From the NCBI GenBank assembly GCA_020429915.1, contig JAGQKV010000008.1, positions 3,338 through 67,337 of the forward strand: a DNA stretch of 64,000 nucleotides, given 5' to 3'. Shown piece by piece: positions 1,068-13,110 of this stretch; within the stretch, counting starts at the first letter, position 1, and each line of letters opens with the position of its first letter. The position numbers and the translations under genes are program-made. The notes beneath the pieces were generated by a model, which worked only from the letters and a program-made list of their open reading frames with translations, was not told the origin of the DNA and made no database searches. This DNA comes from Candidatus Omnitrophota bacterium. GTDB taxonomy: Bacteria; Omnitrophota; Gorgyraeia; Zapsychrales; Zapsychraceae.

Positions 1068-1152
1068 CAATATTCGACGATGTCCATTAAGCCGTATAAG
1101 ATCTTCATCTGCTCCTGATCAATGAAAAAGGGGTTATCAAGTCAGGTAAACC

Positions 1153-1695
1153 ATGCCTTTAATCGGATTTTTGCTGTTCTGCGGAGTTTGGTTCTTTTCG
1201 GTAATTATGTTTACGGTCGGAAGGCAGTCGAAGTCCTGGATAATAAAGGGATTGTTCGGCATTCCCCTGGCAGCGACGGCCATATTGACCGTTACGATAG
1301 TTATTCTTTCGGTAATCGGATTCGTTATACAATTGCATCCGCCATCAGCCTTCCGGCAAGTATTCGGGCAGTGGCCCTCCGATCGGATTACCGACATTCG
1401 TATCGAAGACAGTTGTTTTCTTGACAGTTGTCACACTTATTTGGCATTTAAGACTGACTATAGGGAATTTCAGGAACTAGTGCCCGAGGGCATGGTAAGA
1501 CTGAGTTACGAGGAATACAATGAGAATATGCCTGGATCCAATCTTCATTCACCACGGTGGTGGCTGGGTGTTAATCCTCAAACGGAGGATATCCGGTTTA
1601 TACGCAGTAATAAGAATTTTGCCTCTGAGGTGACGACTATGACGTATGATGCCGAGACGAATACCGCGCAATATTTCTATCTCGGATTGGAGTAG
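1153..1695 (+). CDS. hypothetical membrane protein (AT-rich gene, likely foreign origin)
   Basis: Two N-terminal hydrophobic helices. Codon usage and GC clearly lower than the flanking genes. Confidence 0.5.
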   Translation: MPLIGFLLFCGVWFFSVIMFTVGRQSKSWIIKGLFGIPLAATAILTVTIVILSVIGFVIQLHPPSAFRQVFGQWPSDRITDIRIEDSCFLDSCHTYLAFKTDYREFQELVPEGMVRLSYEEYNENMPGSNLHSPRWWLGVNPQTEDIRFIRSNKNFASEVTTMTYDAETNTAQYFYLGLE

Positions 1696-1722
1696 AAGAA
1701 GGCGTATTAGAAAGGAGATTTT

Positions 1723-2217
1723 ATGTACACTCCCGACGACCAGGACAAAGTGGAAATCTTGCACGACGCGCCGCAGCCGAAGTCGACGGCGACGGACCCG
1801 GTGATCATGGCACAGGAGGACAAGCTGATCCTCGCCTACTATGAGACCGGTCCGCAGGGGCCGAGTTTCGGGGCGGACGAGGTGGCGATGGTGTGGTTCA
1901 AGGGGGTCGTCTCGCACATGTTCGGCCTGCCCACCGACGAGGTGATCGGCGGCCATCCGCTGGCCGGGCGCGGGCTGGAAAAATACCACGTGCACCGGGT
2001 TGAGAATTCCTCATGGCTGCGCGCCATGGAGAAAGTCCATTCCGTGCATCCGAAACACGACAGCGAGCGGTTCCTCAAGGGGATGAACCATTACATCTTC
2101 ACCTTCCACAACTCCACCTTCGAGTGCCTCGCCGAGAGCTTCCGCTTCAAGACGCATGAGACGCATATGGAGGCGGTGAGGCCGCGCATGTTGGAGGAAT
2201 TGCAGGAGCGAGATTGA
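1723..2217 (+). CDS. hypothetical protein
   Basis: 164-aa ORF preceded by AGGAGA RBS-like sequence (GAAAGGAGATTTTATG). Confidence 0.5.
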   Translation: MYTPDDQDKVEILHDAPQPKSTATDPVIMAQEDKLILAYYETGPQGPSFGADEVAMVWFKGVVSHMFGLPTDEVIGGHPLAGRGLEKYHVHRVENSSWLRAMEKVHSVHPKHDSERFLKGMNHYIFTFHNSTFECLAESFRFKTHETHMEAVRPRMLEELQERD

Positions 2218-2225
2218 GTGCGAGG

Positions 2226-2360
2226 GTGGTGAGTGATGTGTGGTGAGTGATGATATAACAGGCGCAGGTCGTAATACGACCATCACTCAGCACTCACCAC
2301 TTCACGCGCGGCATGGAAACATCACCCACGCGCATCGTGAAAACATCACCCACGCGCACG
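2226..2360. repeat. heptamer-periodic hairpin element, copy 1 (GTGATG type)
   Basis: Left arm GGTGGTGAGTGATGTGTGGTGAGTGATGAT (2226-2255) faces right arm CATCACTCAGCACTCACCAC (2281-2300). Loop contains the perfect 7-1-7 palindrome GGTCGTAATACGACC. Two downstream direct copies of AACATCACCCACGCGCA precede the ATG at 2374. Confidence 0.7.
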
Positions 2361-2373
2361 GAGAAAGGCAAAC

Positions 2374-3135
2374 ATGACCAAATACCCACTCCAAATACTC
2401 ATCCAACTGCTATTCACCCTAGTGATGTACGCCATGGCAGTACTATTCTTCGGCATCTCGCTGATGCCGGGGCTTGCGATTCTACTGAAGACCTGGGACG
2501 CGGTACACACCGCGTCGCTGTGGCAGAAGACGATGTGCCTGGGCTTCGCGCTGTCCGCCGGGTTTTTCCTGTTCGGGATCACGCTGGTCCTTTTGGTGGG
2601 GACGTTCCGGATGGTGTCGGGCCTGAAGCTCAAGGAGGGCGAGTACAAGATGCACGAGCTCGAGGCGTTGAAGTGGAGTTTTCTGAGCTGTCTGTATTCG
2701 ATGATCCGTTATACCTTTATCGACTTTATCCTGCTGACGCCGTTTGCGAATCTGCTGTTCCGGATGCTCGGGGCGAAGATGGGCAAGAACGTGGCGATCA
2801 ATTCGTCGTTCGTGTTCGACCATTCGCTGCTGGAGATCGACGACGGCGCGGTGATCGGCGGCGGCGCGATCATCGACGCGCACATCTTCGAGCGCGGGAA
2901 GCTCATACTAAGGAAGGTCAAGATCGGCAAACAGGCCCTGCTGGGCTCGCACTGCACCCTGATGCCGGGCTGTGAAATAGGGGACAAGGCGATCATCTCG
3001 GCGAACGCCTTGTTGCTCAAAGATTCAAAGGTGGAGCCGAGGGATATTTGGGTTGGCATCCCGGCGGAGTCTCTGCGCGCTAAGAAGCGCGCGGAGAGAA
3101 ATAAGCGCAAAGAGCGGGAGGGTGATGATACTTGA
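2374..3135 (+). CDS. hexapeptide-repeat (left-handed beta-helix) acyltransferase with N-terminal membrane segment
   Basis: C-terminal imperfect hexapeptide repeats (NVAINSSFVFDHSLLEIDDGAVIGGGAIIDAHIFERG...IGKQALLGSHCTLMPGCEIGDKAIISANALL). N-terminal 100 aa hydrophobic. Confidence 0.6.
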   Translation: MTKYPLQILIQLLFTLVMYAMAVLFFGISLMPGLAILLKTWDAVHTASLWQKTMCLGFALSAGFFLFGITLVLLVGTFRMVSGLKLKEGEYKMHELEALKWSFLSCLYSMIRYTFIDFILLTPFANLLFRMLGAKMGKNVAINSSFVFDHSLLEIDDGAVIGGGAIIDAHIFERGKLILRKVKIGKQALLGSHCTLMPGCEIGDKAIISANALLLKDSKVEPRDIWVGIPAESLRAKKRAERNKRKEREGDDT

Positions 3136-3223
3136 GTGATGATTTGACAGGCACAGGTTGTAATACGACCATCACCCAGCACTCACCACTTCTTCCACTC
3201 CATAGAACCATCACCCACGCGAA
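3121..3223. repeat. heptamer-periodic hairpin element, copy 2 (GTGATG type)
   Basis: Left arm GGTGATGATACTTGAGTGATGAT, right arm ATCACCCAGCACTCACCAC. Loop ACAGGCACAGGTTGTAATACGACC is nearly identical to the copy-1 loop. Downstream ACCATCACCCACGCGA lies before the ATG at 3235. Confidence 0.7.
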
Positions 3224-3234
3224 ATATACGCACC

Positions 3235-3699
3235 ATGAGCGACCTGATACAAGCCAACGAAACCACTCTGAAAAAAGCCGATCTGTCCGTCCGCATACTC
3301 CAGTTTGCGATCATCTTGACCGGCATCGGCTTCACCTGTATGCTGGCTTTGATCGGGGCCGCGCAGAAGTGGCCGGCATTGCTCCTGGCGGCCGGTTACA
3401 TCGTTTATCTGGTCAACGAACGCTCCGCCTTTGATCGTATCCGGGATGATATCACCCGGGAACCCGCGGCGGCCTGCAAACTCCGGTGCGTCAAACGCAC
3501 ACTGACCCAGGCCCTGGTCGGCGGGCCGGTGGTCATCGCCTTTATCGCCCTGTTCGTGCACAGCGTCAGTGATATCCCGGCGTGGACCGTGGCGCTGCCG
3601 CTGGCCGTGATGTGCGCGGCGGACTTCACCGCGGCACAGGTCCTGTTCAGAAAATTTGACGACGGTACCATTCAACCCTATCAGCAAGAGGAATCATAA
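3235..3699 (+). CDS. hypothetical membrane protein
   Basis: 154 aa with three or four predicted transmembrane helices. Stop overlaps the next start (ATAATG). Confidence 0.5.
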   Translation: MSDLIQANETTLKKADLSVRILQFAIILTGIGFTCMLALIGAAQKWPALLLAAGYIVYLVNERSAFDRIRDDITREPAAACKLRCVKRTLTQALVGGPVVIAFIALFVHSVSDIPAWTVALPLAVMCAADFTAAQVLFRKFDDGTIQPYQQEES

Positions 3700-4445
3700 T
3701 GCACATCGGCCGCACCCGTTTTCGCCGGCAAATCCTGACCGAGTTCGCCGCACCCAAGGACAAAAAGTCCGGCAAGGTTGTGATCTTTTGCGCAGGCGTG
3801 CCGGGCGCACCGGAGAAGGACGAGGTCCTCGAATACTTTGCCAGGAAGGGCTACTGGGCGTTCTTTCCGCGCTACCGCGGCTGCTGGGAGAGCCACGGAA
3901 AGTTCCTCAAGCATTCGCTCGAGTACGATGTCTTTGCCGTGATCGACGCGATGCAAAAGCGATTTAAAGATTTCTGGACGGACAAAAGTTACCGGGTGAA
4001 ACCGGAACATATCACTGTGGTGGGTTCGAGCTTCGGCGGGCCGGCCGCGATTCTGGCCACGCTGGATGAACGCGTGGACAAAGCGGTGTGCATCTCGCCG
4101 GTGGTCGACTGGGTCGCCGAGGACAAGGACGATCCGCTGGAGAATCTCTACAAACTTATCCGCAAGGCCTTCGGCGGGGTGTACCGCATCGACAAGAAGA
4201 ACTGGAACCGGCTGAAAGACGGGGATTTTTACAATCCGCTGCCGCACATCGACAAATTCGATAAAGACAAGATCATGATCTTCCACGCCGAAGACGACAC
4301 CATCGTCAAATACAAACCCGTGGCCAAATTCGCCGACAAACTCGGCTGCAAGCTGACCACCTTCGAAAAGGGAGGCCACCTGTCGTCGTCATTATTATGC
4401 AGCGCGGCGAGTTTCCGTAAGGTGGAGCGATTTCTACACAAATAA
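3699..4445 (+). CDS. alpha/beta hydrolase fold protein
   Basis: Nucleophile-elbow GxSxG (VVGSSFGGPAA). Typical size and layout for a dienelactone-hydrolase or esterase-like enzyme. Confidence 0.6.
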   Translation: MHIGRTRFRRQILTEFAAPKDKKSGKVVIFCAGVPGAPEKDEVLEYFARKGYWAFFPRYRGCWESHGKFLKHSLEYDVFAVIDAMQKRFKDFWTDKSYRVKPEHITVVGSSFGGPAAILATLDERVDKAVCISPVVDWVAEDKDDPLENLYKLIRKAFGGVYRIDKKNWNRLKDGDFYNPLPHIDKFDKDKIMIFHAEDDTIVKYKPVAKFADKLGCKLTTFEKGGHLSSSLLCSAASFRKVERFLHK

Positions 4446-4483
4446 GGGCTCGCCCATCACAACCGACAGGACATAAGGAAACA

Positions 4484-5209
4484 ATGCGCCAAATTTACGT
4501 TTTTTCAGTCATGATCCTGGTCGCCAGCATGTGCCTGGCCCGCGCGGACACCGTCCACGCCCAGGAGAAGCGCCGGGTGTTTCAGCACCGGGGGGTGTGG
4601 GTGGAGAATATCGGCGTCTGTCCCACGGAGATGACCGACCGGATTATCGATCACTTCAAAGAAAAAGGCCGGCAGGTGCGGCTGATCAATATCAATCCAT
4701 ACAACCCCAACCCAAACAAAGACTGCAAACAGGATTCGCTCTTTTTGGTGCATTTGAAAAAACGGGGCACCGAGTTCCCTTACGAAGGGTACACGCGCTA
4801 TATCGAACGCAACGGCAGTTTTATTGAGCATTCGTGGGGGGAAGTCGAGGCCCTGCCGTTTCATCTCGATGATCCGCTGCAGCGTGTCTTTGAGGTTATC
4901 AAGGGCAGCACGTTTATGACGCAGTTGAATTCACACGGCGTCCTGCTGCAAGACGGAACCCGGATCGGCAAGAATGACATGAAGGCAATCATCGAGGAAA
5001 TCCACATGGCGTACCGGCCGGGCATCGAACGGCACATCGACGGGCCGGTCCGGCTCAAGGAAGACACCGGCGGTCTGGTGACCGCTTCCTTTATGACGGG
5101 GAAGGGCCGGCCGGTATGGTACAAACTGAGCAAGGAAGCGGGGTGGTGGAGCATCCTGGACAGCTCGGAGAGCCGCGGCCGGGTGCAGATGCCGTTGCCG
5201 GGAAGTTAG
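4484..5209 (+). CDS. hypothetical secreted protein
   Basis: N-terminal signal peptide (MRQIYVFSVMILVASMCLARADTVHA). Confidence 0.5.
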   Translation: MRQIYVFSVMILVASMCLARADTVHAQEKRRVFQHRGVWVENIGVCPTEMTDRIIDHFKEKGRQVRLININPYNPNPNKDCKQDSLFLVHLKKRGTEFPYEGYTRYIERNGSFIEHSWGEVEALPFHLDDPLQRVFEVIKGSTFMTQLNSHGVLLQDGTRIGKNDMKAIIEEIHMAYRPGIERHIDGPVRLKEDTGGLVTASFMTGKGRPVWYKLSKEAGWWSILDSSESRGRVQMPLPGS

Positions 5210-5232
5210 TCGAAGCGGATTCCGTCGACGTG

Positions 5233-5365
5233 TTTAGTGATGATACAGGATGCGAGGGCATAAGGACAGTCCTGCGAAGGTGCCAGTACATTTCAACCCG
5301 CACCTGATACGATCATCACTCAGCACACATCACTCCTCCCGCAGCCTGAAGACATCACCCGGAGG
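5233..5365. repeat. heptamer-periodic hairpin element, copy 3 (GTGATG type)
   Basis: Left arm TTTAGTGATGATACAGG, right arm CCTGATACGATCATCACTCAGCACACATCAC. Inner palindrome AGGACAGTCCT. Downstream GACATCACCCGGAGG. Confidence 0.65.
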
Positions 5366-5371
5366 CAATTC

Positions 5372-5402
5372 TTGACTTTTTCCGATCCCCGGGGGCTATT
5401 AG
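5372..5402 (+). promoter_or_regulatory. candidate promoter (TTGACT - 19 nt - TATTAG) with embedded palindrome CCCCCGGGGG
   Basis: Read directly. Spacer is longer than optimal. Lies between hairpin copy 3 and the ATG at 5418. Confidence 0.25.
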
Positions 5403-5417
5403 TGCTATTCTAGTAGC

Positions 5418-5726
5418 ATGCGCATGTACCCATGCCCCTCCTGCCAACAAGACGGCATCACCTGGTTCGGCCGCCGGTATTCGGTCAAGCCGATGCCCAC
5501 CCAGTGCCGTCATTGCAAACGCCATTTCTATCCCAAGCGCCGCGCCGACAAATATCCCCGGGAACTGATCGTGATGGAAGTCCTGTTTTGGGCGGCGTTT
5601 TTGCTCGGTGTCGGATTCAAATTCATCGGCTTCTGGCGCGGCGCCCTCCTGCTGGCCGCCTACGCCTGGCTGAGCGGGGTGATTGCGGAGAAAGTGACGT
5701 ATATGGTGCCAGGTGGCGAGGAGTAG
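5418..5726 (+). CDS. small zinc-ribbon membrane protein, hypothetical
   Basis: Two CxxC pairs (CPSCQQ...CRHCKRH) followed by two hydrophobic helices. Confidence 0.45.
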   Translation: MRMYPCPSCQQDGITWFGRRYSVKPMPTQCRHCKRHFYPKRRADKYPRELIVMEVLFWAAFLLGVGFKFIGFWRGALLLAAYAWLSGVIAEKVTYMVPGGEE

Positions 5727-5735
5727 GGATCGGTG

Positions 5736-5846
5736 ATTTGTGATTTGAACAGTTTTCCAAAGTAAGTTGGGATTTCACTCATAAATTTTATCCTAATTCC
5801 AAATTGGCCCAACGGGAGTAATTCCCAATCACTAATCACCAATCCC
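5736..5846. repeat. heptamer-periodic hairpin element, copy 4 (GTGATT type)
   Basis: Left arm GGGATCGGTGATTTGTGATTTG, right arm ATTCCCAATCACTAATCACCAATCCC. Loop carries AGTTGGGATT and TTGGCCCAACGGG. Confidence 0.65.
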
Positions 5847-5902
5847 TAACAGGCCTCAAAGTCCGCTATATGCTATACTATATCCACACCAAGGAGCCTG
5901 AT

Positions 5903-6331
5903 ATGCGTTCATATTTGATATTACTCGCCGTAGTGAGCCTGTGCGCCGGCTGCGCGACGATGCATGAGCCGGAACTGACTGCGGACCAGGTCAGGCAGAT
6001 CGATCTGGCAACAGGCGACCAGACGGCCACGGTGCTGGTCAAGGCCCGGCCGGCCGGACAGCAGCAGCTGACGACGTTTTATCAGATCGATATTCCGGAC
6101 CTCGAACCGGTCCTCGTCTTTAAGGAAAGCAATACCGTGCTGCGGCTCGACGCGGGCACGGTCCCGGTGACGATCACGGCGGTGACCGGCAAGGACAAGT
6201 TCGCGGCCCGCGGTGACTTCTTCGGCAAACCCAGCCGCCGCGTTCTCAACCTCAAACCCGGCGACCGCGTTATCTTGGAGTACACGGGACCGTATTGGAT
6301 GGGGGATTCTGGCAGGCTATACGCGAAGTGA
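5903..6331 (+). CDS. hypothetical lipoprotein
   Basis: Strong RBS AAGGAG 6 nt before the ATG at 5903. Lipobox LCAGC. The upstream in-frame ATG at 5870 lacks an RBS. Confidence 0.5.
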   Translation: MRSYLILLAVVSLCAGCATMHEPELTADQVRQIDLATGDQTATVLVKARPAGQQQLTTFYQIDIPDLEPVLVFKESNTVLRLDAGTVPVTITAVTGKDKFAARGDFFGKPSRRVLNLKPGDRVILEYTGPYWMGDSGRLYAK

Positions 6332-6347
6332 GAGTCAGGGGGGTGAG

Positions 6348-6517
6348 TTGGGATTGGTGATTAGGGATTGGGGATTTGGAGATTGGACCGTTACTCAATG
6401 CAGCGATTTGGGGGCGGTCGCCATTCCGAATGCGGATTACAAGATTGTAATCTCCACACCCACGGCACATCCTGAAAGCAAACTGTTCAAATCCCCAATC
6501 ACAAATCACTAATCCCC
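6348..6517. repeat. heptamer-periodic hairpin element, copy 5 (GTGATT type)
   Basis: Left arm GTTGGGATTGGTGATTAGGGATTGGGGATTTGGAGATTGG (five 7-bp units), right arm CAAATCCCCAATCACAAATCACTAATCCCC. Loop contains the perfect palindrome GGATTACAAGATTGTAATCC. Confidence 0.7.
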
Positions 6518-6543
6518 AGTAAGCTCTATTCAAAACTATCCGC

Positions 6544-6978
6544 ATGACCCTACAGCTACATCCGACATTTCTACAATTCCTCCCCCACTTCTGGCAAAAC
6601 TACTATCTCGCCACCCCGCTGTTCGTGGTGCTCGACGCGATTTTCGGCATCAGTCTGCGGATTCCGTTTCTCGACAACGCGCCTGTGCTAAAATACATTT
6701 ACTACGCGATGATTTTTTGCTTCGGCCTCGTGATACGCCGCTGGCCGGACACGGCCAAGGGGATTTCGCTGGCCGAATGTTCGGTGTGCGTGACGCTGAC
6801 CTGCGTCGGCTTTTTGGTCCCGCTGTACTGTCACGACTGGAGCCTGGAGGCGATCGAGCACGCGCGGGATTATTACAACTGGAAAACGATTACCAACTTC
6901 GCGGTGACTGGCGGGTTGTTGTATTATTGGTTTTATCAGGCGCAGATTAGATTTAAAATTAACGGTACTGTGGAATGA
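6544..6978 (+). CDS. hypothetical membrane protein
   Basis: 144 aa with four predicted transmembrane helices. Moderately AT-rich. Confidence 0.45.
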   Translation: MTLQLHPTFLQFLPHFWQNYYLATPLFVVLDAIFGISLRIPFLDNAPVLKYIYYAMIFCFGLVIRRWPDTAKGISLAECSVCVTLTCVGFLVPLYCHDWSLEAIEHARDYYNWKTITNFAVTGGLLYYWFYQAQIRFKINGTVE

Positions 6979-7098
6979 ATGATGGTATGGCTTGCATGGG
7001 CGAATGTTAGGTACGATTTTCTCTCATTAAACTGAATTTATAATTGAACCGGTTGTTCTACTGTGACGCCTGGTTTAAATTCGACTCAGTAAGGCTTT

Positions 7099-7578
7099 AT
7101 GAACAATCAGGAGATTAAAAAGGAAATAAACGCGTTTGTGCTTTTGATTGAACACGGCGCCGGAAGTTCAGTCGAGAACTTCAAGGAACTGCTACGTGTG
7201 CTCGACGCTTTGGCATTGGCAATACATTATGTGAAATATACCTACGACGAAAATGAATTACCCGATCCACCCCGGAGGAGTTACGAGGATGACCGGAAGC
7301 TGGCGACTGAGCGATTTCCTGATTTTGGTCATTACAACCGTGTACTCAATGTCGTGGAAAAATTAGGGCACCCAGATTTCGGAATGGGTGACGCTTTCGA
7401 TGATATAACGGATATTTATGGAGAAATGAAAATGGTACAGTGGCGATGGGACCATAATGGTCCGGATGATGCCTTGTGGTGTTTTAGCGACATGTATGGT
7501 TTTCATTGGAAACGGCATTTAAGAAACTTACAGCTCTATTTGTGTGAATGGATGGACTCAGATGGCGACGGAAAGTAG
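7099..7578 (+). CDS. hypothetical protein (AT-rich, acidic, Trp-rich; immunity-protein-like)
   Basis: 159 aa. Visibly lower GC than its surroundings. No enzymatic motifs. Confidence 0.45.
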   Translation: MNNQEIKKEINAFVLLIEHGAGSSVENFKELLRVLDALALAIHYVKYTYDENELPDPPRRSYEDDRKLATERFPDFGHYNRVLNVVEKLGHPDFGMGDAFDDITDIYGEMKMVQWRWDHNGPDDALWCFSDMYGFHWKRHLRNLQLYLCEWMDSDGDGK

Positions 7579-7996
7579 ACTTTTGTTTGTCGATTTACAG
7601 AACGATGAAGACGCCATGCATATTGCCGTGTGGGCGGCCAACGGTAATTTTCAGGGGATGCAGGATATCTATATTTACCGGGAACAGCTGAATGACTGGG
7701 CCTGCGAGCTGACTGAATTCGGAAAGACACCCCAAGACAAGGCGGTCTTTGAATACGGCAGCGACGATCCCAACTTTTATGCCCGGCTGCGCCTGACCGC
7801 CTTCATCTACGAATCCCGGGGCGCCTCTGCGCTGGAGGTGTTGATCGACAATCATTCCGAAAGCCCGTACCAATGCCGGGTGGAATTCTGTATCTTCTGC
7901 GCCCCGGCCGAACTCAATGAATTAGGCGCGATGATTCTCGATTGGGACACCGGTAAGAACCTGATGATGGAATGGACCGTGGAGAATTCGGTGTGA
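7562..7996 (+). CDS. hypothetical protein (acidic; immunity-protein-like). Start is either 7544 or 7562
   Basis: ORF 7544-7996. Starting at the second ATG (7562) avoids most of the overlap with the upstream gene. Confidence 0.4.
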   Translation: MATESRLLFVDLQNDEDAMHIAVWAANGNFQGMQDIYIYREQLNDWACELTEFGKTPQDKAVFEYGSDDPNFYARLRLTAFIYESRGASALEVLIDNHSESPYQCRVEFCIFCAPAELNELGAMILDWDTGKNLMMEWTVENSV

Positions 7997-9387
7997 AGAG
8001 GGCCGTGATCATCATCTTGGGCGTGTGCATCCTGTTCGGGGCGCTGGCCGTTACGCGCAATCCGTACAACCGCGATTGGACGCGCGGTGAACTCAGTCAC
8101 GTGGTGGCTTACAATCTGTGCACCACCGGAAAAATGTTCCCCGACGCCCCGTACGTCGCGCGGCCGCCGGGCTACATTTATTTTATCGCCGCGGTGTTCT
8201 CCGCGTCCGAATTTCTAGCCCCGCAATTTTGCTTTATGGAGACGCCGGAAGGTCATGTCCCGGTGAAAACCAATTTGCTGGTCGCGCTCTTCATCGCGCA
8301 GATATTCGTCCACGCGGCGAACGCCGTCCTTCTTTATTTATGGGCAGGCAGGTTGATGGACCGGCGGATGGCGCTGGTGATCGCGTTGTGTTTCGGCACG
8401 AGCGTCTACTGGTTGTTGCAAATCGCGTCGGTCCATTATGCCGTATGGCATCTTTTCTGGGTGCTTGCGGCCGGATATACCTGGACGCTGGCCTGGCAGG
8501 AACGCGAGCGCTCCCTGATGATGGGGCTGAGCGGACTTCTGTGGGGAATCGCCACGCTGGTGCGTCCGGTGACGCTGTTGTTGCCGTTGTTCGCCGTCCC
8601 GGCGGCCGTGATCGCGGGCCGGGGGGACAAACACTGGGTGATCCGTTTCACCCTGCTGATCATTCTGGGCATGGCTGTGTTCATCGGGCCGAACACGCTG
8701 AGGAATTACCGGCTGACCGGCCGCTGGATTCCGGTCAACGCACAGGCCGCGGCGGCGCTGTGGGGCGGGACCGAACCGCATCCGGGAATCTCTCCCAAGC
8801 ACTATTTCTGGCCGCGGCTGCTGCCGGAATTCGAGCGGATCTATCGCGGCGTGACCGGCGACAATTATACCTATGCGGGTTATGTGCGGCACAACCTCGC
8901 TCTGGAAGATGCCTTCCGCCGTGAGGCGTGGCGCAATATCCGGGAACGGCCCGGTGTTTACGCCGGAAATGTCCTGACAAATTTAAAACTCTTCGCCGTG
9001 GGTGTCGACTCCGGAATCCTGAACGGGTATCTGGCCCGCAGACATGGGGAGGACAGAACGGCGACGACGCGGCCTTTCGACGCGCTAATGATTTTACTGA
9101 CGGTGCTGGCCGGACTGGCGGGGTACGCGGCGTTACGGGCTCGGGATACCCGGCTGCTGGTCCCGGCGGCGGTCCTGTTGTGCTACGGACTGGGCCATGC
9201 CCTGACTTATCTGGACATCAATTATTATTATTTCAAGCAGCCGTTCCTGTATCTGGGGGCGGGTTATCTGCTCAGCCGGTTGTGCTGTTCGTCCGACCGG
9301 CCGGGAGCGGGGTGGCGGATCGCGGGATACGTCATGACGGGCGCCGTGATTTGTGTAACGGCGATGTCCTGGAGGATATTCTTCTAG
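7993..9387 (+). CDS. polytopic membrane glycosyltransferase candidate (ArnT/PMT-like, GT39/GT83-type)
   Basis: About 12 transmembrane helices. PPGYIYFIAAVF-type motif near the first loop. GTG start at 7993 with GGAGA RBS; an alternative ATG start lies at 7972. Confidence 0.45.
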   Translation: MKRAVIIILGVCILFGALAVTRNPYNRDWTRGELSHVVAYNLCTTGKMFPDAPYVARPPGYIYFIAAVFSASEFLAPQFCFMETPEGHVPVKTNLLVALFIAQIFVHAANAVLLYLWAGRLMDRRMALVIALCFGTSVYWLLQIASVHYAVWHLFWVLAAGYTWTLAWQERERSLMMGLSGLLWGIATLVRPVTLLLPLFAVPAAVIAGRGDKHWVIRFTLLIILGMAVFIGPNTLRNYRLTGRWIPVNAQAAAALWGGTEPHPGISPKHYFWPRLLPEFERIYRGVTGDNYTYAGYVRHNLALEDAFRREAWRNIRERPGVYAGNVLTNLKLFAVGVDSGILNGYLARRHGEDRTATTRPFDALMILLTVLAGLAGYAALRARDTRLLVPAAVLLCYGLGHALTYLDINYYYFKQPFLYLGAGYLLSRLCCSSDRPGAGWRIAGYVMTGAVICVTAMSWRIFF

Positions 9388-9506
9388 GAGGTCCGGCGGA
9401 CGGACCGTTACCGTCCCATATAATTGCTGTCACTTTTCACCGGCATATCACTTCAAAGTATTTTTAAAACTTTCCTCACCCGGCGATATTTCAGGGCCAT
9501 CATCCG

Positions 9507-10442
9507 CTAGTCATCATCCTCTGTCGTACTGAATAAAGCCCAGATCGGCCGGTGATCCGACACTGCCAGTTTGGCGCGGTTGTCGTCGTTGCCGAACATG
9601 GTTTCGTCGAAATTCCACACGCCGACCTGGCCGGTGTACTCGCGGACGTAGCGGGTCTCGAACCAGAAATTGTCGTAGAGACTCGTATCGGTGACGGTGG
9701 TGCGGACCGGATCGTTCAGCAAGGCCGTCATCGTGGGCAGGCGGTTCAGGTTCGACCAGCCGCGGTCGTCGGGCCCGAAATTGAAGTCGCCTAACAGGAT
9801 GATATCCTGTTCGCCGGCATCGGCGTTTTGCGCGTATTCATAGACCTTGGCGAGGTGTTCCAGTTCGGGACGGCGCTCGGATTCGCTTTTACCGTAAAGC
9901 AGGTGAATGGTCAGCAGGGTGAAGTCAAAGGCCCCGGCGCGGAAGGAAGCGAAATAGGGTTCGCGGATGAACTCGTCGCGCTCATCCGGATACAGCTGTC
10001 CGGGCGTTGTCTGGGCGACCTTGTCGGCACGGTAGAGAAAGGCGTAGCGTTCCTTGACCCCGCGGCCGACCGGCGCGCTGATGTCGTAGGCGGCCGGATA
10101 ACCGCGGCGTTCAAGCAGGGCCACGGTGCGGCGCAGGACGTCTTCGTCGCGCAGTTCCTGGATGGCGGTTATGTCGCACGGTTCGAGCAGATTTGTGATA
10201 TAATCCAGCTCGTTGTCGTCGCGGCTCTTATTGGAGAAGACGCGGATGTTGAAGGAACACACCCGCAGGTCGTCGCCGCCCGCCATGGCGGTGACAGGCG
10301 CGGGCGCCGAAGCGGTCCGTTGTTCCAGAAAGCGCTCGATATCCGCGCGCGGCGCAAAGGCCAGACCGATGGCGGCAATCAGCGCCAACAGCAATAAGGC
10401 GTCGGTCAGTCGGGATGATTTCGGTTTGGGACGACGGGGCAT
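9507..10442 (-). CDS. secreted endonuclease/exonuclease/phosphatase (EEP, DNase I-like) family protein
   Basis: Signal peptide or TM at the N-terminus. EEP catalytic motifs include LRVCSFNIR, ILLGDFN and the C-terminal SDHRPIWA. Confidence 0.65.
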   Translation of the reverse strand: MPRRPKPKSSRLTDALLLLALIAAIGLAFAPRADIERFLEQRTASAPAPVTAMAGGDDLRVCSFNIRVFSNKSRDDNELDYITNLLEPCDITAIQELRDEDVLRRTVALLERRGYPAAYDISAPVGRGVKERYAFLYRADKVAQTTPGQLYPDERDEFIREPYFASFRAGAFDFTLLTIHLLYGKSESERRPELEHLAKVYEYAQNADAGEQDIILLGDFNFGPDDRGWSNLNRLPTMTALLNDPVRTTVTDTSLYDNFWFETRYVREYTGQVGVWNFDETMFGNDDNRAKLAVSDHRPIWALFSTTEDDD

Positions 10443-10512
10443 GGTGCTTTTTATTGTAAGTTACGTAAGGCATGAAGGAAGGAAAAAGGTGATTATTTTG
10501 ACTATCCGCTTG

Positions 10513-10659
10513 GGTGCTGAGTGATGTGTGATGAGTGCTGATCGCGGGGGACGAACTGACATATTTGCCGATACACCGAATACGACCATCACCCATCACC
10601 GCATGGACTGCTTGAGTACATCACTCATCACCCTTAAATCCAATCATCACACCCGGAGG
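10513..10659. repeat. heptamer-periodic hairpin element, copy 6 (GTGATG type)
   Basis: Left arm GGTGCTGAGTGATGTGTGATGAGTGCTGAT, right arm CCGAATACGACCATCACCCATCACC. Then ACATCACTCATCACCC and ATCATCACACCCGGAGG precede the ATG at 10665. Confidence 0.7.
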
Positions 10660-10664
10660 AAAAT

Positions 10665-11027
10665 ATGAAATACATCGACGGCTTTCTAATCCCCGTCCCC
10701 AAAAAGAAACTGGACGAATACAAAAAACTCGCTCGCAAGGCGGGGAAGATCTGGATGGAATATGGCGCGCTGGATTATGTGGAATGTGTTGCCGACGACG
10801 TGAAGAAGGGGAAATGGACGTCGTTCCCGCAGGCGGTCAAACAGAAGGACGGCGAGACCGTTGTCTTTTCCTATATCATCTACAAATCCCGCGCCCACCG
10901 TGACCGGGTTAATAAAAAGGTCATGGCCGACCCGCGCCTGATGGCGATGTGCGACCCCGGCAACATGCCCTTCGACGGCAAGCGAATGATGTGGGGGGGA
11001 TTTAAGTCGATGGTGGATATGGCGTGA
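10665..11027 (+). CDS. DUF1428-like small protein
   Basis: About 120 aa. N-terminus MKYIDGFLIPVPKKKLDEYKK resembles DUF1428 (YbaA-like) proteins. Assignment is from memory only. Confidence 0.45.
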   Translation: MKYIDGFLIPVPKKKLDEYKKLARKAGKIWMEYGALDYVECVADDVKKGKWTSFPQAVKQKDGETVVFSYIIYKSRAHRDRVNKKVMADPRLMAMCDPGNMPFDGKRMMWGGFKSMVDMA

Positions 11028-11030
11028 TAA

Positions 11031-11195
11031 GGGATGAGTGATGTGTGATGAGTGATGATCGCAGGAAGCGCTGGTCACAGGGAGTGTTGGTCGCAGGGAG
11101 TGTTGCTCGTGGGAAGTACTGGTCAAATGTACCGAATACGATCATCACTCACCACTTCATACACTTCCTGACGACATCACTCACCACCCGGGAGA
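11031..11195. repeat. heptamer-periodic hairpin element, copy 7 (GTGATG type)
   Basis: Left arm GGGATGAGTGATGTGTGATGAGTGATGAT, right arm ACCGAATACGATCATCACTCACCAC. Loop holds the 16-nt direct repeat GTC(A/G)CAGGGAGTGTTG. Downstream GACATCACTCACCACCCGGGAG precedes the ATG at 11200. Confidence 0.7.
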
Positions 11196-11199
11196 ATAA

Positions 11200-11763
11200 A
11201 TGAGAAAACCAATATTACCGATAACCGCTATCCTGATCCTCCTCGCGCACACGCACGCCCGCGCGCAAGTCGCCATTACAACAGTCCCCACCCAACCACC
11301 TTCCGGGCAAACCGACGGGCAGCATCAGGTGAAACGCAATTTCTCGCACCGCGACCTGCCGCCCTTGAATCTCGATATGTTCGCGCTGAGCACGCAGACC
11401 GGCGGAGAGTTTTACTTTTGGGGGGAAGGCGAGTTCGGTTCCGAGGCGGCGAGCAAGGTGATCGCCGAATCGGTCCTGTCGACACAGACGCTCCTCTATA
11501 AGTACGGGGATATCGACGGGACATGCGAGATCCCGTTTTACGTGGAGAAGTACAAGTACCACTTTACCTTCTTCACCGGTATTCAATCCAAAGACCGTAT
11601 CGAATTCATCCAACCCGACGGCAGGGTCCTCAAGGACGGCGAAGGCGTGATCGTTTATCCCTTTCAACGTATGCTCATCGCCACGGTCAACGCGCCGCAG
11701 GCGGGGGAGTGGACCATCCGACTGTCGGGCAGGGGGAAGTATTTGGTTTCAGTGAGAAAGTGA
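11200..11763 (+). CDS. hypothetical secreted protein
   Basis: Signal peptide MRKPILPITAILILLAHTHARA. Confidence 0.5.
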   Translation: MRKPILPITAILILLAHTHARAQVAITTVPTQPPSGQTDGQHQVKRNFSHRDLPPLNLDMFALSTQTGGEFYFWGEGEFGSEAASKVIAESVLSTQTLLYKYGDIDGTCEIPFYVEKYKYHFTFFTGIQSKDRIEFIQPDGRVLKDGEGVIVYPFQRMLIATVNAPQAGEWTIRLSGRGKYLVSVRK

Positions 11764-11777
11764 ACTTCAAGGGGCGA

Positions 11778-11887
11778 GAGTCGGGATACGTGATACGGGA
11801 TATGTGATACGAACAGTCTGCCGTCAGGAATATTTACGGAGTTTACCTAAGAACTTGGCCCAACGGGCCGTCAACGTATCCCGACTG
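11778..11887. repeat. heptamer-periodic hairpin element, copy 8 (GTGATAC type)
   Basis: Left arm GAGTCGGGATACGTGATACGGGATATGTGATACG (four 7-bp units), right arm CGTATCCCGACTG. Loop contains TTGGCCCAACGGGCC, shared with copy 4. Confidence 0.65.
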
Positions 11888-11918
11888 GCCATCCTATCGC
11901 TCCTGAAAGGTTTTAACA

Positions 11919-12923
11919 TTGGTGTTATTGATTGTTAATATTATCATCGCCCTCGTCCTCGCCGGCGGTTGGCTGTTCATGCTGCTGATCCCCGTCGGTA
12001 TCTGCGCGCAGACTGAGGAGCCGATGGATCTGAAAGATTTTAAGCCGCACGTCTTTCGTTGTCCGAAATGCGCCAAGGAATGGGCGCCGCTGCGGCTGCT
12101 CAAACACGTGACCTTTGATCACAAGGAACGCATTGAACGCAAGGTGATCCCGCGGATCGCGGACTGCAACGAATGCGGTGGCCGCGGGGTCGTCTCCGGC
12201 GGAATGACGTCCATGCCGCACGCGTTCGAGTTCGACCGGGAGATGCCCGTGCAAACCACGGTCGGCTGTTCGGTGTGCGGCGGGTCGGGCCGGGTGCCGC
12301 ATCCCGACGGCGATGAAGTGCGGGTGCGGAAGATCCGTTCCTGCAAACACCGCTATACCTATCAATGTCTGTCCTGCACCGGGAAGTTCGACAGTGAATA
12401 CCGGGTGAATTGGCACAAACCGAAACCGTCCAAGCCGCATGATTCGACTTACGACGGCGTCATTCAGATGGGCATGGCCCGGGGGATGGCCGGTGTTACG
12501 GCCCTGGTGTTCGGAGCGGCACTGTATACGGTTATCCGCACGGCGATGTCCACGTATCCGGAATATCCGTTGAAAGAAGATATGATGTGGGCCCTGAATC
12601 GGCTCCTGTTCAAGGGGGCGGGCGTGACGCTGTTGGCGATTCCCGGCGGAGCGCTGTTCGGATTGGTGTGCGGTGTGATCAATCTGCCGCTGGCCCGGTT
12701 TTTGAAACGCAAAGGATTGCCAAACGCGCTGGTCTGCGGTACAGTGGCGGGTACGGGATTGCTGGCCGCTGCCGATGCGTTTTTTCTCACTGGGCAGGTC
12801 CCGGTGTACGCTGCGGATCCCCAGGGCTGGGTGACTGCCTACGGAACCGCCGCCGCCCTGGCCGCGACGGCCTTGCTGTTGGGGCAGGGAGTGTGGGCTC
12901 TGGCGCAGAGATGGAATTTATAA
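11919..12923 (+). CDS. hypothetical membrane protein with three zinc-ribbon-like CxxC pairs
   Basis: TTG (11919) or GTG (11922) start. N-terminal TM, then CPKC/CNEC/CSVC/CLSC pairs, then about four C-terminal transmembrane helices. Confidence 0.45.
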   Translation: MVLLIVNIIIALVLAGGWLFMLLIPVGICAQTEEPMDLKDFKPHVFRCPKCAKEWAPLRLLKHVTFDHKERIERKVIPRIADCNECGGRGVVSGGMTSMPHAFEFDREMPVQTTVGCSVCGGSGRVPHPDGDEVRVRKIRSCKHRYTYQCLSCTGKFDSEYRVNWHKPKPSKPHDSTYDGVIQMGMARGMAGVTALVFGAALYTVIRTAMSTYPEYPLKEDMMWALNRLLFKGAGVTLLAIPGGALFGLVCGVINLPLARFLKRKGLPNALVCGTVAGTGLLAAADAFFLTGQVPVYAADPQGWVTAYGTAAALAATALLLGQGVWALAQRWNL

Positions 12924-12924
12924 G

Positions 12925-13028
12925 TGATGTGTGATGAGTGGTCCCTCGACTCCGCTCGGGATTGAACTTGCCGATCATTGCAGATGGTGAGCGAAGTCGA
13001 ACTATGAGGGGTGATCGTATTCGGTGCG
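12925..13028. repeat. heptamer-periodic hairpin element, copy 9 (GTGATG type, right arm inverted)
   Basis: Left arm GTGATGTGTGATGAGTGG. The distal arm GGTGATCGTATTCGGTG is the reverse complement of the CACCGAATACGATCACC motif seen in copies 6 and 7. Confidence 0.55.
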
Positions 13029-13048
13029 TCGGCTTCCTAAAAAGAACT

Positions 13049-13058
13049 TGTATAATTT
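13049..13058 (+). promoter_or_regulatory. candidate extended -10 element (TTGTATAAT) upstream of the hydrolase gene
   Basis: TG directly 5' of TATAAT. No good -35 element. Confidence 0.25.
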
Positions 13059-13110
13059 TCCAGCGAACAGCACTCAACCCTCACGCACGACTTGGCCGCA
13101 TCACCCCAGG

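What the first reader, a model, noticed from the sequence alone, without database searches (positions are those of the whole stretch)
1100..13100. Cassette-array-like accessory region: about 18 small, co-oriented, unrelated genes of mixed GC separated by recurring hairpin elements
Nearly all genes here are short and on the + strand. The one exception is a secreted EEP nuclease. Functions are unrelated: GNAT and hexapeptide acyltransferases, two alpha/beta hydrolases, DUF1428, a GT39-like membrane protein, and many secreted or membrane hypotheticals. Several genes (1153-1695, 6544-6978, 7099-7996) are clearly AT-richer than their neighbours. At least nine copies of a related imperfect-palindrome element sit in the intergenic gaps. 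This is the layout of a sedentary chromosomal integron or CALIN cassette array, or of a REPIN/MITE-punctuated hypervariable island. No integrase, Xer or transposase gene is visible in the window, and the repeats do not match the canonical attC consensus. A cassette-type system with non-canonical recombination sites is therefore possible.
Basis: partly seen in the sequence, partly recalled or inferred. Interest (0 to 1): 0.8.

Follow-up and report, generated by a model that had tools for sequence, protein, structure and literature searches.

The report
Gene island punctuated by IVS-like hairpins
A 12-kb stretch of small envelope-type genes in an uncultured Omnitrophota bacterium is punctuated by nine long hairpins built from 7-base repeats, which look like gene-less relatives of the "intervening sequence" elements known from ribosomal RNA genes, not integron recombination sites.

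Summary
Seventeen short genes lie between 1153 and 13944, 16 of them on the + strand. Nine imperfect palindromes sit in 9 of the 12 intergenic gaps here, against 0 of 13 gaps in the remaining 51 kb (Fisher p=1e-4).

Each arm is 3-4 tandem heptamers (GKGATNN), and the other arm carries the complement.

The integron reading is not supported:
- No attC R-boxes are present.
- No integrase lies within -3.4 to +51 kb; only an IS30 transposase gene end lies upstream.
- Most genes have native GC3.
- Relatives at 50-80% protein identity keep gene adjacencies across hairpins. Only one of about four rearrangement breakpoints coincides with a hairpin.

In Omnitrophota MAG HK-STAS-OMNI-4, arms of the same types flank 23S_rRNA_IVP (S23p, four-helix-bundle) genes inserted in core operons. 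One arm is 97.5% identical to the E8 arm over 40 nt. A second species carries such elements at orthologous sites, with the heptamer changed in both arms.

This matches the anatomy of the Coxiella 23S rRNA intervening sequence: an inverted-repeat stem containing tandem heptamers, an S23p ORF in the loop, and RNase III excision.

Best reading: ORF-less IVS-like palindromes that probably form RNase III-type stems between transcription units. That function is inferred, not shown.

The parts
2222..2354 (.). Hairpin E1 (type I, GTGATGA/GTGGTGA heptamers). Left arm 2222-2256, loop with ATACGACC box, proximal right arm 2274-2305, distal ACATCACCC boxes 2318-2354.
   Evidence: I5, I6, D1, D2; MFE -61.7, z -4.3. 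It starts 5 nt after the stop codon of 1723-2217.
3117..3221 (.). Hairpin E2 (type I), a whole-element paralogue of E1. The left arm overlaps the stop codon of 2374-3135.
   Evidence: D2: 105 nt are 81% identical to 2228-2332; weak fold, z -1.3.
5228..5360 (.). Hairpin E3 (type I, degenerate). It has a short left arm, a right arm with the ATACGATCATCAC box and a distal ACATCACCC box.
   Evidence: (D1, I1, I11).
5722..5850 (.). Hairpin E4 (type II, GGGATYG/GTGATTT heptamers). The left arm overlaps the stop codon of 5418-5726. The loop carries GAACAGTT and TTGGCCCAACGGG boxes.
   Evidence: I2, I6; z -4.7.
6344..6520 (.). Hairpin E5 (type II), with 29-nt arms 90% complementary and a 109-nt loop.
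   Evidence: I5; I1; MFE -75, z -5.2. An orthologous gap in relative L056 holds a hairpin of a different type.
10508..10640 (.). Hairpin E6 (type I, bipartite stem), lying between the divergent genes EEP(-) and DUF1428(+).
   Evidence: (D3, D5, D6, I10). The whole-gap fold is not significant.
11029..11192 (.). Hairpin E7 (type I, bipartite stem). The loop contains three 16-nt tandem repeats.
   Evidence: I23; I2, I11; z -3.8.
11776..11892 (.). Hairpin E8 (type III, GGGATAC/GTGATAC heptamers). The left arm is complete and the right arm truncated.
   Evidence: z -3.2; 40 nt of the arm are 97.5% identical to an arm flanking an IVP gene in HK-STAS-OMNI-4..
12918..13112 (.). Hairpin E9 (type I, degenerate, partly inverted). 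It carries the module CCCTCGACTCCGCTCGGGAT...GTGAGCGAAGTCGAAC. The left arm overlaps the stop codon of 11922-12923.
   Evidence: (D3, I7, I19, I21). An orthologous copy sits upstream of the alpha/beta hydrolase in relative L052.
1153..2217 (+). Two genes (180 aa, AT-rich, membrane; 164 aa, no family) that follow the GNAT gene with no hairpin between them.
2374..3135 (+). Membrane-anchored hexapeptide-repeat acyltransferase, a single gene between E1 and E2.
3235..5209 (+). Three-gene unit: 154-aa membrane protein, alpha/beta hydrolase (Peptidase_S9) and 241-aa secreted protein.
5418..5726 (+). 102-aa zinc-ribbon/membrane protein, between E3 and E4.
5870..6331 (+). 153-aa lipoprotein (lip153), between E4 and E5.
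   Evidence: A homologue at 63% identity precedes a hairpin in L056.
6544..10442 (.). Five-gene unit without internal hairpins: 144-aa membrane protein, DUF5063-like (AT-rich), 144 aa, GT39 glycosyltransferase and EEP nuclease/phosphatase (- strand).
   Evidence: The block DUF5063-like/142 aa/GT39/EEP(-) is conserved in relative L055.
10665..11027 (+). DUF1428 gene, between E6 and E7.
11200..11763 (+). 187-aa secreted protein, between E7 and E8.
11922..12923 (+). 333-aa zinc-ribbon/membrane protein, between E8 and E9.
13117..13944 (+). Alpha/beta hydrolase lipoprotein, the first gene to the right of E9. Its pairing with the following 382-aa gene is conserved in a relative.

Best explanation
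The region is a chromosomal stretch of small, mostly envelope-associated genes in a Candidatus Omnitrophota bacterium. Its intergenic gaps have been colonised by a lineage-specific family of long imperfect palindromes.

Anatomy of the elements (shown): each arm is 3-4 tandem heptamers of the form G-K-G-A-T-N-N, and the partner arm carries the complement. The two variable positions define subtypes:
- type I, GA/GT
- type II, TT/TG/TA
- type III, AC/AT
- type IV, TCGAATA-like, seen just upstream of the window

Relationship to IVS elements: these are ORF-less relatives of IVS-type elements. In Omnitrophota MAG HK-STAS-OMNI-4 and in a second species, the same kinds of arms enclose a 23S_rRNA_IVP (S23p, four-helix-bundle, bAvd-like) gene. 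Those elements sit inside or between core operons at positions conserved between species.

Inferred mechanism: when transcribed, each element folds into a 20-30-bp imperfect stem directly after the upstream stop codon. As in 23S rRNA intervening sequences, such a stem would be an RNase III substrate or a 3'-end stabiliser. It would then separate or insulate neighbouring transcription units. An element landing in a gene's 3' end can also supply the stop codon, because TGA/TAA/TAG occur in the heptamers.

The local pile-up most likely reflects local duplication or conversion of elements in a region of short, loosely packed units that tolerates them. Neighbouring elements share a type, and E1 and E2 are 81% identical over 105 nt.

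Shown: anatomy, clustering, arm covariation, kinship with IVP-flanking arms, partial synteny in relatives, absence of integron hallmarks.

Inferred: RNA-level function, RNase III processing, and the mode of spread.
For: Anatomy and clustering.

Position: eight of nine left arms start between -18 and +21 nt of the upstream stop codon. None is followed by a T-tract.

Link to IVP genes:
- In L021/L108 (HK-STAS-OMNI-4), GGGATAC arms enclose an IVP gene. The arm is 97.5% identical over 40 nt to the E8 arm.
- GTGATGA arms with the same CCAATACGATCATCAC box as E1-E3, E6 and E7 also enclose an IVP gene.
- So do TCGAATA arms like the element upstream of the window (Pfam E=1e-39, 9e-37).
- A solo type II hairpin with the E9 module follows nadA in the same locus.

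Second species (L102): it has IVP elements and the nadA solo hairpin at the same sites, but with GTGATCA and GGGATAA heptamers in both arms.

Covariation over 7 elements: 86% of cells are paired against 73% in shuffles. Ten of 21 pairs have a change on both sides against 5.3 +/- 1.5. Heptamer position 6 shows all four Watson-Crick types. The duplex-energy matrix groups arms by subtype.

Orthologous gaps keep a hairpin while its sequence changes: E5 vs L056, and E9 vs L052.

Published precedent:
- The Coxiella IVS has a 28-bp terminal inverted-repeat stem, tandem heptamers in the stem, an S23p ORF in the loop and RNase III excision (PMC4990558).
- Xanthomonas has 70-75 convergent pairs of GGGAATC heptamer repeats in intergenic regions, lying closer to the neighbouring 5' ORF (average 28 nt) than to the downstream ORF (PMC4692102).
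Against: No IVP gene or remnant is detectable in the window's loops (tblastn), so derivation from IVP-bearing elements rests on arm and sub-terminal box similarity only.

Four of the nine elements do not fold better than shuffled sequence.

E6 lies between divergent gene starts, where a 3'-end role makes no sense.

Stem mismatches in the window are A.C rather than G.U on the sense strand (13 vs 3). This is not what selection on the sense RNA predicts; the stems would be better on the opposite strand.

The extreme local density (9 in 11 kb against 0 in 51 kb) is not explained by gap availability, and its cause is only guessed.

No transcript data were available.

Whether HK-STAS-OMNI-4 is the same organism as the window is unresolved.
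Confidence: 0.6

Rival explanations
1. A cassette system with non-canonical sites. The hairpins would be recombination sites used by an unseen recombinase to insert and excise gene-plus-hairpin cassettes, as attC sites are used by IntI.
For: The layout fits: short, co-oriented, unrelated genes each followed by an imperfect palindrome of 80-180 nt.

Single genes are flanked by same-type elements: Hexa by E1/E2 (81% identical over 105 nt), lip153 by E4/E5, and DUF1428 by E6/E7. E4-left and E5-right are 83% complementary over 36 nt, as if lip153 sat inside one older palindrome (I2).

Stems are better on the strand opposite to the genes, as for attC bottom strands.

One replaced segment in L055 starts at a hairpin.
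Against: There are no R''/R' boxes.

No recombinase lies in -3.4 to +51 kb.

The same arm types occur singly in core operons around IVP genes, at positions stable between species.

Gene adjacency across hairpins is conserved at 50-80% protein identity. Three of about four breakpoints do not fall at hairpins.

Several units hold 3-5 genes, including a conserved operon.

GC3 is native for 14 of 16 genes.
Confidence: 0.08
2. REP/REPIN-type elements mobilised in trans by a Y1 HUH transposase (RAYT) encoded elsewhere in the genome.
For: The elements are intergenic palindromes with several subfamilies, present in clusters and as singletons. A Y1_Tnp (PF01797) gene lies 3.5 kb from an IVP element in three other Omnitrophota contigs. 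Many IVP genes sit on very short contigs, as repeats do.
Against: No Y1_Tnp gene is present in the window or in the 20-kb HK-STAS-OMNI-4 locus.

The arms are tandem heptamers with element-specific variants, not one conserved REP sequence with a GTAG-like head.

Elements are stable at orthologous sites across species.

The Y1_Tnp neighbourhood may be coincidence; it was not tested.
Confidence: 0.1
3. Neutral by-products. Heptamer microsatellites expand by slippage and are copied in inverted orientation by template switching. The palindromes would have no function and simply persist where selection on spacing is weak.
For: Arms are tandem repeats with variable copy number. Heptamers are homogenised within an element. 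Four of nine copies are decayed. Heptameric SSRs are over-represented in intergenic DNA of other bacteria (PMC4692102).
Against: Complementarity is kept while the heptamer changes at orthologous sites in two species. The position relative to stop codons is consistent. Sub-terminal boxes (ATACGAYCATCAC, GAACAGTT, the E9 module) are conserved between loci and species.
Confidence: 0.15
4. Protein-binding arrays. The heptamers would be iteron-like binding sites, for example for the pentameric IVP/S23p protein or a regulator, acting on DNA as operators or insulators rather than through RNA structure.
For: The G-K-G-A-T core is invariant while flanking positions vary. The arms are associated with a gene for a nucleic-acid-binding-type four-helix-bundle protein (bAvd-like). 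E6 sits in a divergent promoter region.
Against: A binding-site model does not require the two arms to covary, yet they do. No IVP gene was found in the window. No binding data exist for this family.
Confidence: 0.07

Closest known systems
23S rRNA intervening sequences (IVS) carrying an S23p/23S_rRNA_IVP ORF (Coxiella, Leptospira; PMC4990558)
   Same: Terminal inverted repeats form a stem of roughly 20-30 bp, and the stem contains tandem heptamers. In the related Omnitrophota loci the loop holds a PF05635 gene of 115-121 aa, giving the same overall size (about 450-650 nt).
   Different: The nine window copies have no ORF (loops of 22-110 nt) and lie between protein-coding genes, not in 23S rRNA helix 25 or 45. 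The heptamer sequence is different (GKGATNN vs GACAGAT). RNase III cleavage is untested here.
Convergent pairs of intergenic heptamer repeats (GGGAATC in Xanthomonas, GGGGA(C/T)T / STRR in Nostoc; PMC4692102)
   Same: Tandem heptamers, G-rich on the 5' side of either strand. They are almost exclusively intergenic, close to the end of the upstream ORF, and often occur as inverted pairs able to form stem-loops. They sit in conserved genomic locations.
   Different: The phylum and heptamer differ. Here several subtypes coexist, with conserved sub-terminal boxes, and the copies are clustered at 1 per 1.3 kb. G-quadruplex potential exists only for type II.
REP/BIME and REPIN elements of Proteobacteria
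   Same: Extragenic imperfect palindromes between co-directional genes. They are thought to stabilise upstream mRNA or act as processing sites, and they are clustered in places.
   Different: REPs are about 35 nt with one conserved sequence per family and are tied to RAYT genes. These elements are 80-180 nt, built from heptamers and tied to IVP genes. No RAYT was seen nearby.
Integron attC sites / CALIN arrays
   Same: An imperfect palindrome of variable length follows each short, mostly co-oriented, promoter-poor gene.
   Different: There are no R''/R' core sites and no IntI. Elements also occur singly in core operons, units often hold several genes, and gene order is partly conserved across species.

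Membership tests
Integron / CALIN cassette array | attC sites with inverse core RYYYAAC and core GTTRRRY at the base of the stem | tested here: not met
   No RYYYAAC...GTTRRRY pair lies in any of the 11 array gaps. Only 2 such pairs exist in the whole 64 kb, and neither lies in an array gap.
Integron / CALIN cassette array | intI tyrosine recombinase next to the array (complete integron only) | tested here: not met
   None was found among called genes from 3.4 kb upstream to 51 kb downstream. The upstream contig end is an IS30 transposase tail. Sequence beyond that could not be read.
Integron / CALIN cassette array | attC secondary-structure model (L boxes, extrahelical bases) as scored by IntegronFinder | not testable with these tools
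   No attC covariance model is available. Rfam has none and gave no hit.
Integron / CALIN cassette array | Cassette turnover between relatives, with breakpoints at the sites | tested here: inconclusive
   Only three short contigs from relatives were available (L052, L055, L056). Adjacencies are kept across hairpins, and 1 of about 4 breakpoints falls at a hairpin. All contigs of the same strain are 100% identical.
IVS-type element (23S_rRNA_IVP/S23p gene within an inverted-repeat stem) | Terminal inverted repeats forming a long stem | tested here: met
   Arms are 20-39 nt, with duplex energies of -19 to -45 kcal/mol.
IVS-type element (23S_rRNA_IVP/S23p gene within an inverted-repeat stem) | Tandem heptamers in the stem region (as in Coxiella) | tested here: met
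   The published feature was read.
IVS-type element (23S_rRNA_IVP/S23p gene within an inverted-repeat stem) | PF05635 ORF in the loop | tested here: not met
   There is no IVP gene or remnant in the window. The feature is met for the sister elements in L021/L108 and L102.
IVS-type element (23S_rRNA_IVP/S23p gene within an inverted-repeat stem) | Insertion in 23S rRNA and excision by RNase III | tested here: not met
   No rRNA is present in the window; the elements lie between protein-coding genes. RNase III cleavage itself cannot be tested here.
Intergenic heptamer-repeat inverted pairs (Xanthomonas/Nostoc type) | Tandem heptamers, intergenic, near the upstream ORF end, in convergent pairs | tested here: met
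   Eight of nine start within -18 to +21 nt of a stop codon. Compared with PMC4692102.
REP/REPIN-RAYT | RAYT (Y1_Tnp) gene flanked by the repeats, and one conserved REP sequence at high genome-wide copy number | tested here: inconclusive
   No Y1_Tnp is present in the window or in L108. One lies near an IVP gene in L104-L106. The genome-wide count was not obtainable.
Intrinsic terminator | GC-rich stem followed by a T-tract | tested here: not met
   None of the 27 terminator-like sites coincides with a hairpin element, and no T-run follows the arms.

The most novel reading that the evidence does not exclude
The heptamer-arm palindromes could be the ends of a previously undescribed gene-carrying element. 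Whatever lies between a G-arm and a C-arm (usually the IVP gene, here ordinary cargo such as lip153 between E4-left and E5-right) would be moved or copied as a unit. The IVP four-helix-bundle protein, or a partner enzyme, would recognise the heptamers on one DNA strand. The array would then be a pile-up of such captures, that is, a cassette system unrelated to integrons.
Probability: 0.07. Interest if true: 0.8.

Novelty: new member of a known kind. Interest (0 to 1): 0.35.

Why it matters
The result removes a tempting but unsupported "new integron-like system" call.

It also gives a concrete identity to a repeat family in Omnitrophota, an uncultured phylum. The same heptamer-built stems that define rRNA intervening sequences, and that enclose S23p/IVP genes, occur here as ORF-less copies between ordinary genes, and as ORF-bearing copies inside core operons at positions conserved between species.

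The function of the very large 23S_rRNA_IVP family is unknown: 6,954 proteins had E <= 1e-20 among the 8,000 candidates scored. A lineage where the gene, its stems and stem-only derivatives coexist would be a useful place to test two questions:
- Are these selfish RNA-level elements processed by RNase III?
- Does the protein recognise the heptamers?

Tried and rejected
- Rfam, at gathering and at E<=1: no match to any hairpin. No tRNA or tmRNA was found.
- Genome-collection scan with ATACGAYCATCACYCANCAC: 19 hits, about the number expected by my own calculation (~17). Only one is a real element (L021). The window itself was not returned, so its genome is not readable in that collection.
- Two viral-contig scans: they hit only a phage coding motif and unrelated GGGATAC microsatellites.
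- Metagenome scan anchored on the EEP gene: 45 loci at 33-62% identity (best segment). None showed synteny or heptamer hairpins, so it was uninformative for locus comparison.
- tblastn of IVP proteins against the window: no remnant.
- Contig extension to the left: it stops after 3.4 kb at an IS30 tail in every assembly shown. The 2.0-Mb NCBI contig carrying this locus could not be displayed.
- Intrinsic-terminator and sigma-70 scans: nothing coincides with the elements.
- The L007 'deletion' at 39.6 kb is a scaffold gap of Ns.
- Whole-gap fold z-scores do not separate array gaps from core gaps as a class (Mann-Whitney p=0.18). The signal lies in the arm sequences and in five strong folds.

Full report
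WHAT IS THERE

Between 1153 and 13944 the window carries 17 genes of 102-464 aa (median 172 aa). All are on the + strand except the Exo_endo_phos gene at 9507-10442.
- GNAT (408-1067)
- hexapeptide acyltransferase (2374-3135)
- two alpha/beta hydrolases (3699-4445 and 13117-13944)
- DUF1428 (10665-11027)
- GT39 (7993-9387)

Nine proteins match nothing in Pfam or NCBIfam. From their sequences many have signal peptides, lipoprotein boxes or membrane segments; this is my reading.

The rest of the window is ordinary chromosome: KptA, RtcB/archease, PFK, LptF/G, Maf, a histidine kinase, an ECF sigma/anti-sigma pair, RadC and Pta.

The organism is a Candidatus Omnitrophica/Omnitrophota MAG. The 382-aa and GT39 proteins are 100% identical to NCBI MAG proteins on a 2.0-Mb contig.

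THE HAIRPINS

Nine imperfect palindromes (E1-E9; coordinates under 'parts') occupy 9 of the 12 intergenic gaps of at least 80 nt in the array. None of 13 such gaps in 13.9-58 kb has one (Fisher p=1.1e-4). A periodic-heptamer regex and a window-wide inverted-repeat search find them only at 2.2-13.1 kb.

Each arm is 3-4 tandem heptamers G-K-G-A-T-N-N. The other arm is the complement, N-N-A-T-C-M-C. The last two positions define subtypes:
- type I, GTGATGA/GTGGTGA: E1, E2, E3, E6, E7, E9
- type II, GGGATTG/GTGATTA: E4, E5
- type III, GGGATAC/GTGATAC: E8
- type IV, TCGAATA-like: a tenth element just upstream of the window (L001:127-430)

Loops are 22-110 nt. Conserved sub-terminal boxes exist:
- ATACGAYCATCAC inside the right arm of E1, E2, E3, E6 and E7, and inverted in E9
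- GAACAGTT next to type II/III arms
- TTGGCCCAACGGG in E4 and E8
- a 55-nt module, CCCTCGACTCCGCTCGGGAT...GTGAGCGAAGTCGAAC, in E9 and inverted in the upstream element

Eight of the nine left arms begin between -18 and +21 nt of the upstream stop codon. Three overlap the stop codon. The heptamers contain TGA/TAA/TAG in most frames. E6 is the exception: it lies between divergent gene starts.

Five gaps fold far better than shuffles (z -2.7 to -5.1). E2, E3, E6 and E9 are decayed copies. None has a T-tract, so they are not canonical intrinsic terminators. Rfam has nothing.

IS IT AN INTEGRON-LIKE ARRAY?

The defining features that could be tested are not met.
- No gap has an RYYYAAC...GTTRRRY pair.
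- No tyrosine recombinase, Xer or HUH gene is among the called genes from 3.4 kb upstream to 51 kb downstream.
- Upstream lies an APH/inositol-monophosphatase/PIG-L/GNAT operon, preceded by the type IV hairpin.
- At the end of every contig shown are the last 43 codons of an IS30-family transposase. These match the end of NF033563 at E=0.001, a fragment below cut-off.
- By GC3, 14 of 16 array genes are indistinguishable from core genes (0.68-0.85 against 0.72 +/- 0.03). Only 1153-1695 (0.52) and 7099-7578 (0.48) look foreign, and neither is bounded by hairpins on both sides.

RELATIVES

All contigs carrying identical proteins are 100% identical in DNA, so there is no strain variation to read. 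Three short contigs from relatives were found.

L052 (382-aa protein at 72% identity) keeps the alpha/beta hydrolase plus 382-aa gene pair. It begins inside an E9-like element at the orthologous place, with a differently composed but still paired inner stem. Downstream genes differ.

L055 (GT39 at 59%) reads: hairpin, 161 aa, DUF2339, DUF5063-like, 142 aa, GT39, EEP(-). The last four genes are therefore a conserved block, not independent cassettes.

L056 (GT39 at 51%) reads: lip153 homologue (63%), hairpin, m144 homologue (80%), 45 aa, CPCC protein, GT39, DUF5063-like. The lip153/hairpin/m144 adjacency is kept. However, the hairpin there is type I with the E9 module, whereas the window has type II.

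Of roughly four rearrangement breakpoints visible, only one coincides with a hairpin. A metagenome scan anchored on the EEP gene returned 45 loci at 33-62% identity (best segment), with no synteny and no such hairpins. The elements are therefore lineage-specific.

WHAT THE HAIRPINS ARE RELATED TO

A 20-nt pattern from the type I right arm, scanned over one genome per species, gave 19 hits. This is about the number expected by my own calculation (~17). Only one hit is a real element, in Omnitrophota MAG HK-STAS-OMNI-4.

In 20 kb of that genome (L108) there are four elements:
- type IV arms enclosing a 121-aa gene
- type I arms with the same CCAATACGATCATCAC box enclosing a 118-aa gene
- type III arms enclosing a 117-aa gene
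- a solo type II hairpin with the E9 module directly after nadA

The type III arm is 97.5% identical over 40 nt to the E8 arm.

Two of the enclosed genes (117 and 118 aa) were scanned here and are 23S_rRNA_IVP (PF05635, E=1e-39 and 9e-37), with weaker bAvd-like matches. The 121-aa gene carries a precomputed PF05635 hit. These elements sit between or inside NAD-biosynthesis and suf/nifU genes.

A second species (L102, GC 0.47) has IVP elements at two of the same positions and the solo hairpin after nadA. There the heptamers are GTGATCA and GGGATAA instead of GTGATGA and GGGATAC, and the change appears in both arms. A third lineage has an IVP gene between carB and pyrG, with GTAAG-type arms.

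Formal pair counting used seven hand-registered stems. It gives 86% paired cells against 73% in shuffles, 10 of 21 pairs changed on both sides against 5.3 +/- 1.5, and all four Watson-Crick pairs at heptamer position 6. Slid registers drop to 29-47% paired. The caveats are that the set is small and the arms were chosen by eye.

An RNAduplex matrix shows that arms are interchangeable within a subtype and poor across subtypes. It also shows that IVP-bearing copies are better paired than most window copies.

COMPARISON WITH THE LITERATURE

The Coxiella burnetii IVS is described as a 428-nt selfish element. It has terminal inverted repeats forming a 28-bp stem, and tandem heptamers (GACAGAT, copy number varying between strains) at the 5' stem. 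An S23p ORF sits in the loop, and RNase III excises the element by cutting within the stem (PMC4990558).

Xanthomonas genomes carry GGGAATC heptamer repeats, 89-93% of them intergenic. They lie closer to the neighbouring 5' ORF (average 28 nt) than to the downstream ORF, and 70-75 occur as convergent pairs able to form stem-loops. Nostoc has GGGGA(C/T)T repeats (PMC4692102).

The window elements match these anatomies. They are ORF-less and sit outside rRNA. I found no paper describing IVP-type elements in Omnitrophota or ORF-less arrays of them, but the searchable library is incomplete.

HOW IT MOST LIKELY WORKS

Shown: this is a family of heptamer-built palindromes with subtype-specific, covarying arms. 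Some members enclose IVP genes, and others, including all nine here, are empty. Positions can be conserved across species while the sequence turns over. The copies are strongly piled up locally in this gene island.

Inferred: on transcription each element forms a long imperfect stem just past the upstream stop codon. By analogy with IVS it is cut by RNase III or blocks 3' exonucleases. This would separate or insulate neighbouring units without a canonical terminator. The pile-up arose by local duplication or conversion. Supporting this, neighbouring elements share a type, and E1 and E2 are 81% identical over 105 nt.

Points that do not fit well:
- E6 lies in a divergent promoter region.
- Four copies are decayed.
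- Stem mismatches in the window are A.C rather than G.U on the sense strand (13 vs 3), so the stems are better on the opposite strand.

For these reasons the identity claim is fairly firm, and the RNA-processing function is only the leading guess.

UNRESOLVED

It is unclear whether HK-STAS-OMNI-4 is the window's own genome. In favour, protein accession numbers for the two loci are close in two MAG batches, and all four arm types plus the module are shared. Against, the genome scan did not return the window, and strain identity patterns differ. Either way the elements are not confined to the array.

The cassette reading is kept as a low-probability rival because same-type elements flank single genes (Hexa, lip153, DUF1428). 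In addition, E4-left pairs with E5-right over 36 nt (I2).

VERDICT

This is a variable but largely native gene region punctuated by ORF-less IVS-like heptamer palindromes: a new member of a known kind, of moderate interest.

Noticed in passing
L108:3815-4470, 9908-10390, 13205-13697 (HK-STAS-OMNI-4); L102:6588-7062, 9934-10396: 23S_rRNA_IVP (four-helix-bundle, bAvd-like) genes enclosed by heptamer inverted repeats sit inside NAD and suf/nifU gene clusters. Two of the positions are the same in two Omnitrophota species. The heptamer is changed in concert in both arms (GTGATGA vs GTGATCA; GGGATAC vs GGGATAA).
   Followed up: partly
L001:1-132 (3.3-3.45 kb upstream of window position 1): Every assembly shown ends in the C-terminal 43 codons of an IS30-family transposase, directly followed by a 300-nt type IV heptamer palindrome. 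The IS probably causes the assembly break and marks the left edge of what could be read.
   Followed up: partly
window 2222-13112 (stems of E1-E7): Mismatches in the stems are A.C far more often than G.T on the gene-sense strand (13 vs 3). The palindromes would therefore pair better on the opposite strand. This may be a register effect of alternating GTGATGA/GTGGTGA heptamers.
   Followed up: partly
window 21338-21849: A 512-nt GC-rich intergenic region folds clearly better than shuffles (z -3.1) and has no Rfam match (best E 0.12, to miRNA models, i.e. noise). It could be an undescribed structured RNA or a long leader.
   Followed up: partly
L104:13864-14523, L105:8140-8799, L106:7031-7690: A Y1_Tnp (IS200/RAYT-type, PF01797) gene lies about 3.5 kb from an IVP gene in three contigs of another Omnitrophota lineage, next to AbiEii genes. 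Any link to the palindromes is untested.
   Followed up: no
L107 vs L108, positions 1-2520: Two assemblies of the HK-STAS-OMNI-4-type organism are 98.9% identical over 17.8 kb. Upstream of a MiaB-like gene they differ completely (Fic/AHSA1 versus DJ-1/hexapeptide transferase), which is a strain-level replacement. A 45-nt sequence (CAAATCCCGCCTTGTTTAAATCCGGTG...) occurs twice near the boundary in L108.
   Followed up: no
window ~7639 (L054 position 1): One sample's 62-kb contig ends inside the 144-aa gene at the AT-rich/GC-rich transition within the array, not at a hairpin. This may reflect a strain variant or low coverage.
   Followed up: no
one search hit table: Many of the closest IVP homologues sit on contigs of only 0.5-2 kb, which suggests that these elements routinely break short-read assemblies.
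   Followed up: no
window 11062-11130: The loop of E7 contains three 16-nt tandem repeats (GGTCACAGGGAGTGTT, GGTCGCAGGGAGTGTT, GCTCGTGGGAAGTACT) of unknown meaning.
   Followed up: no
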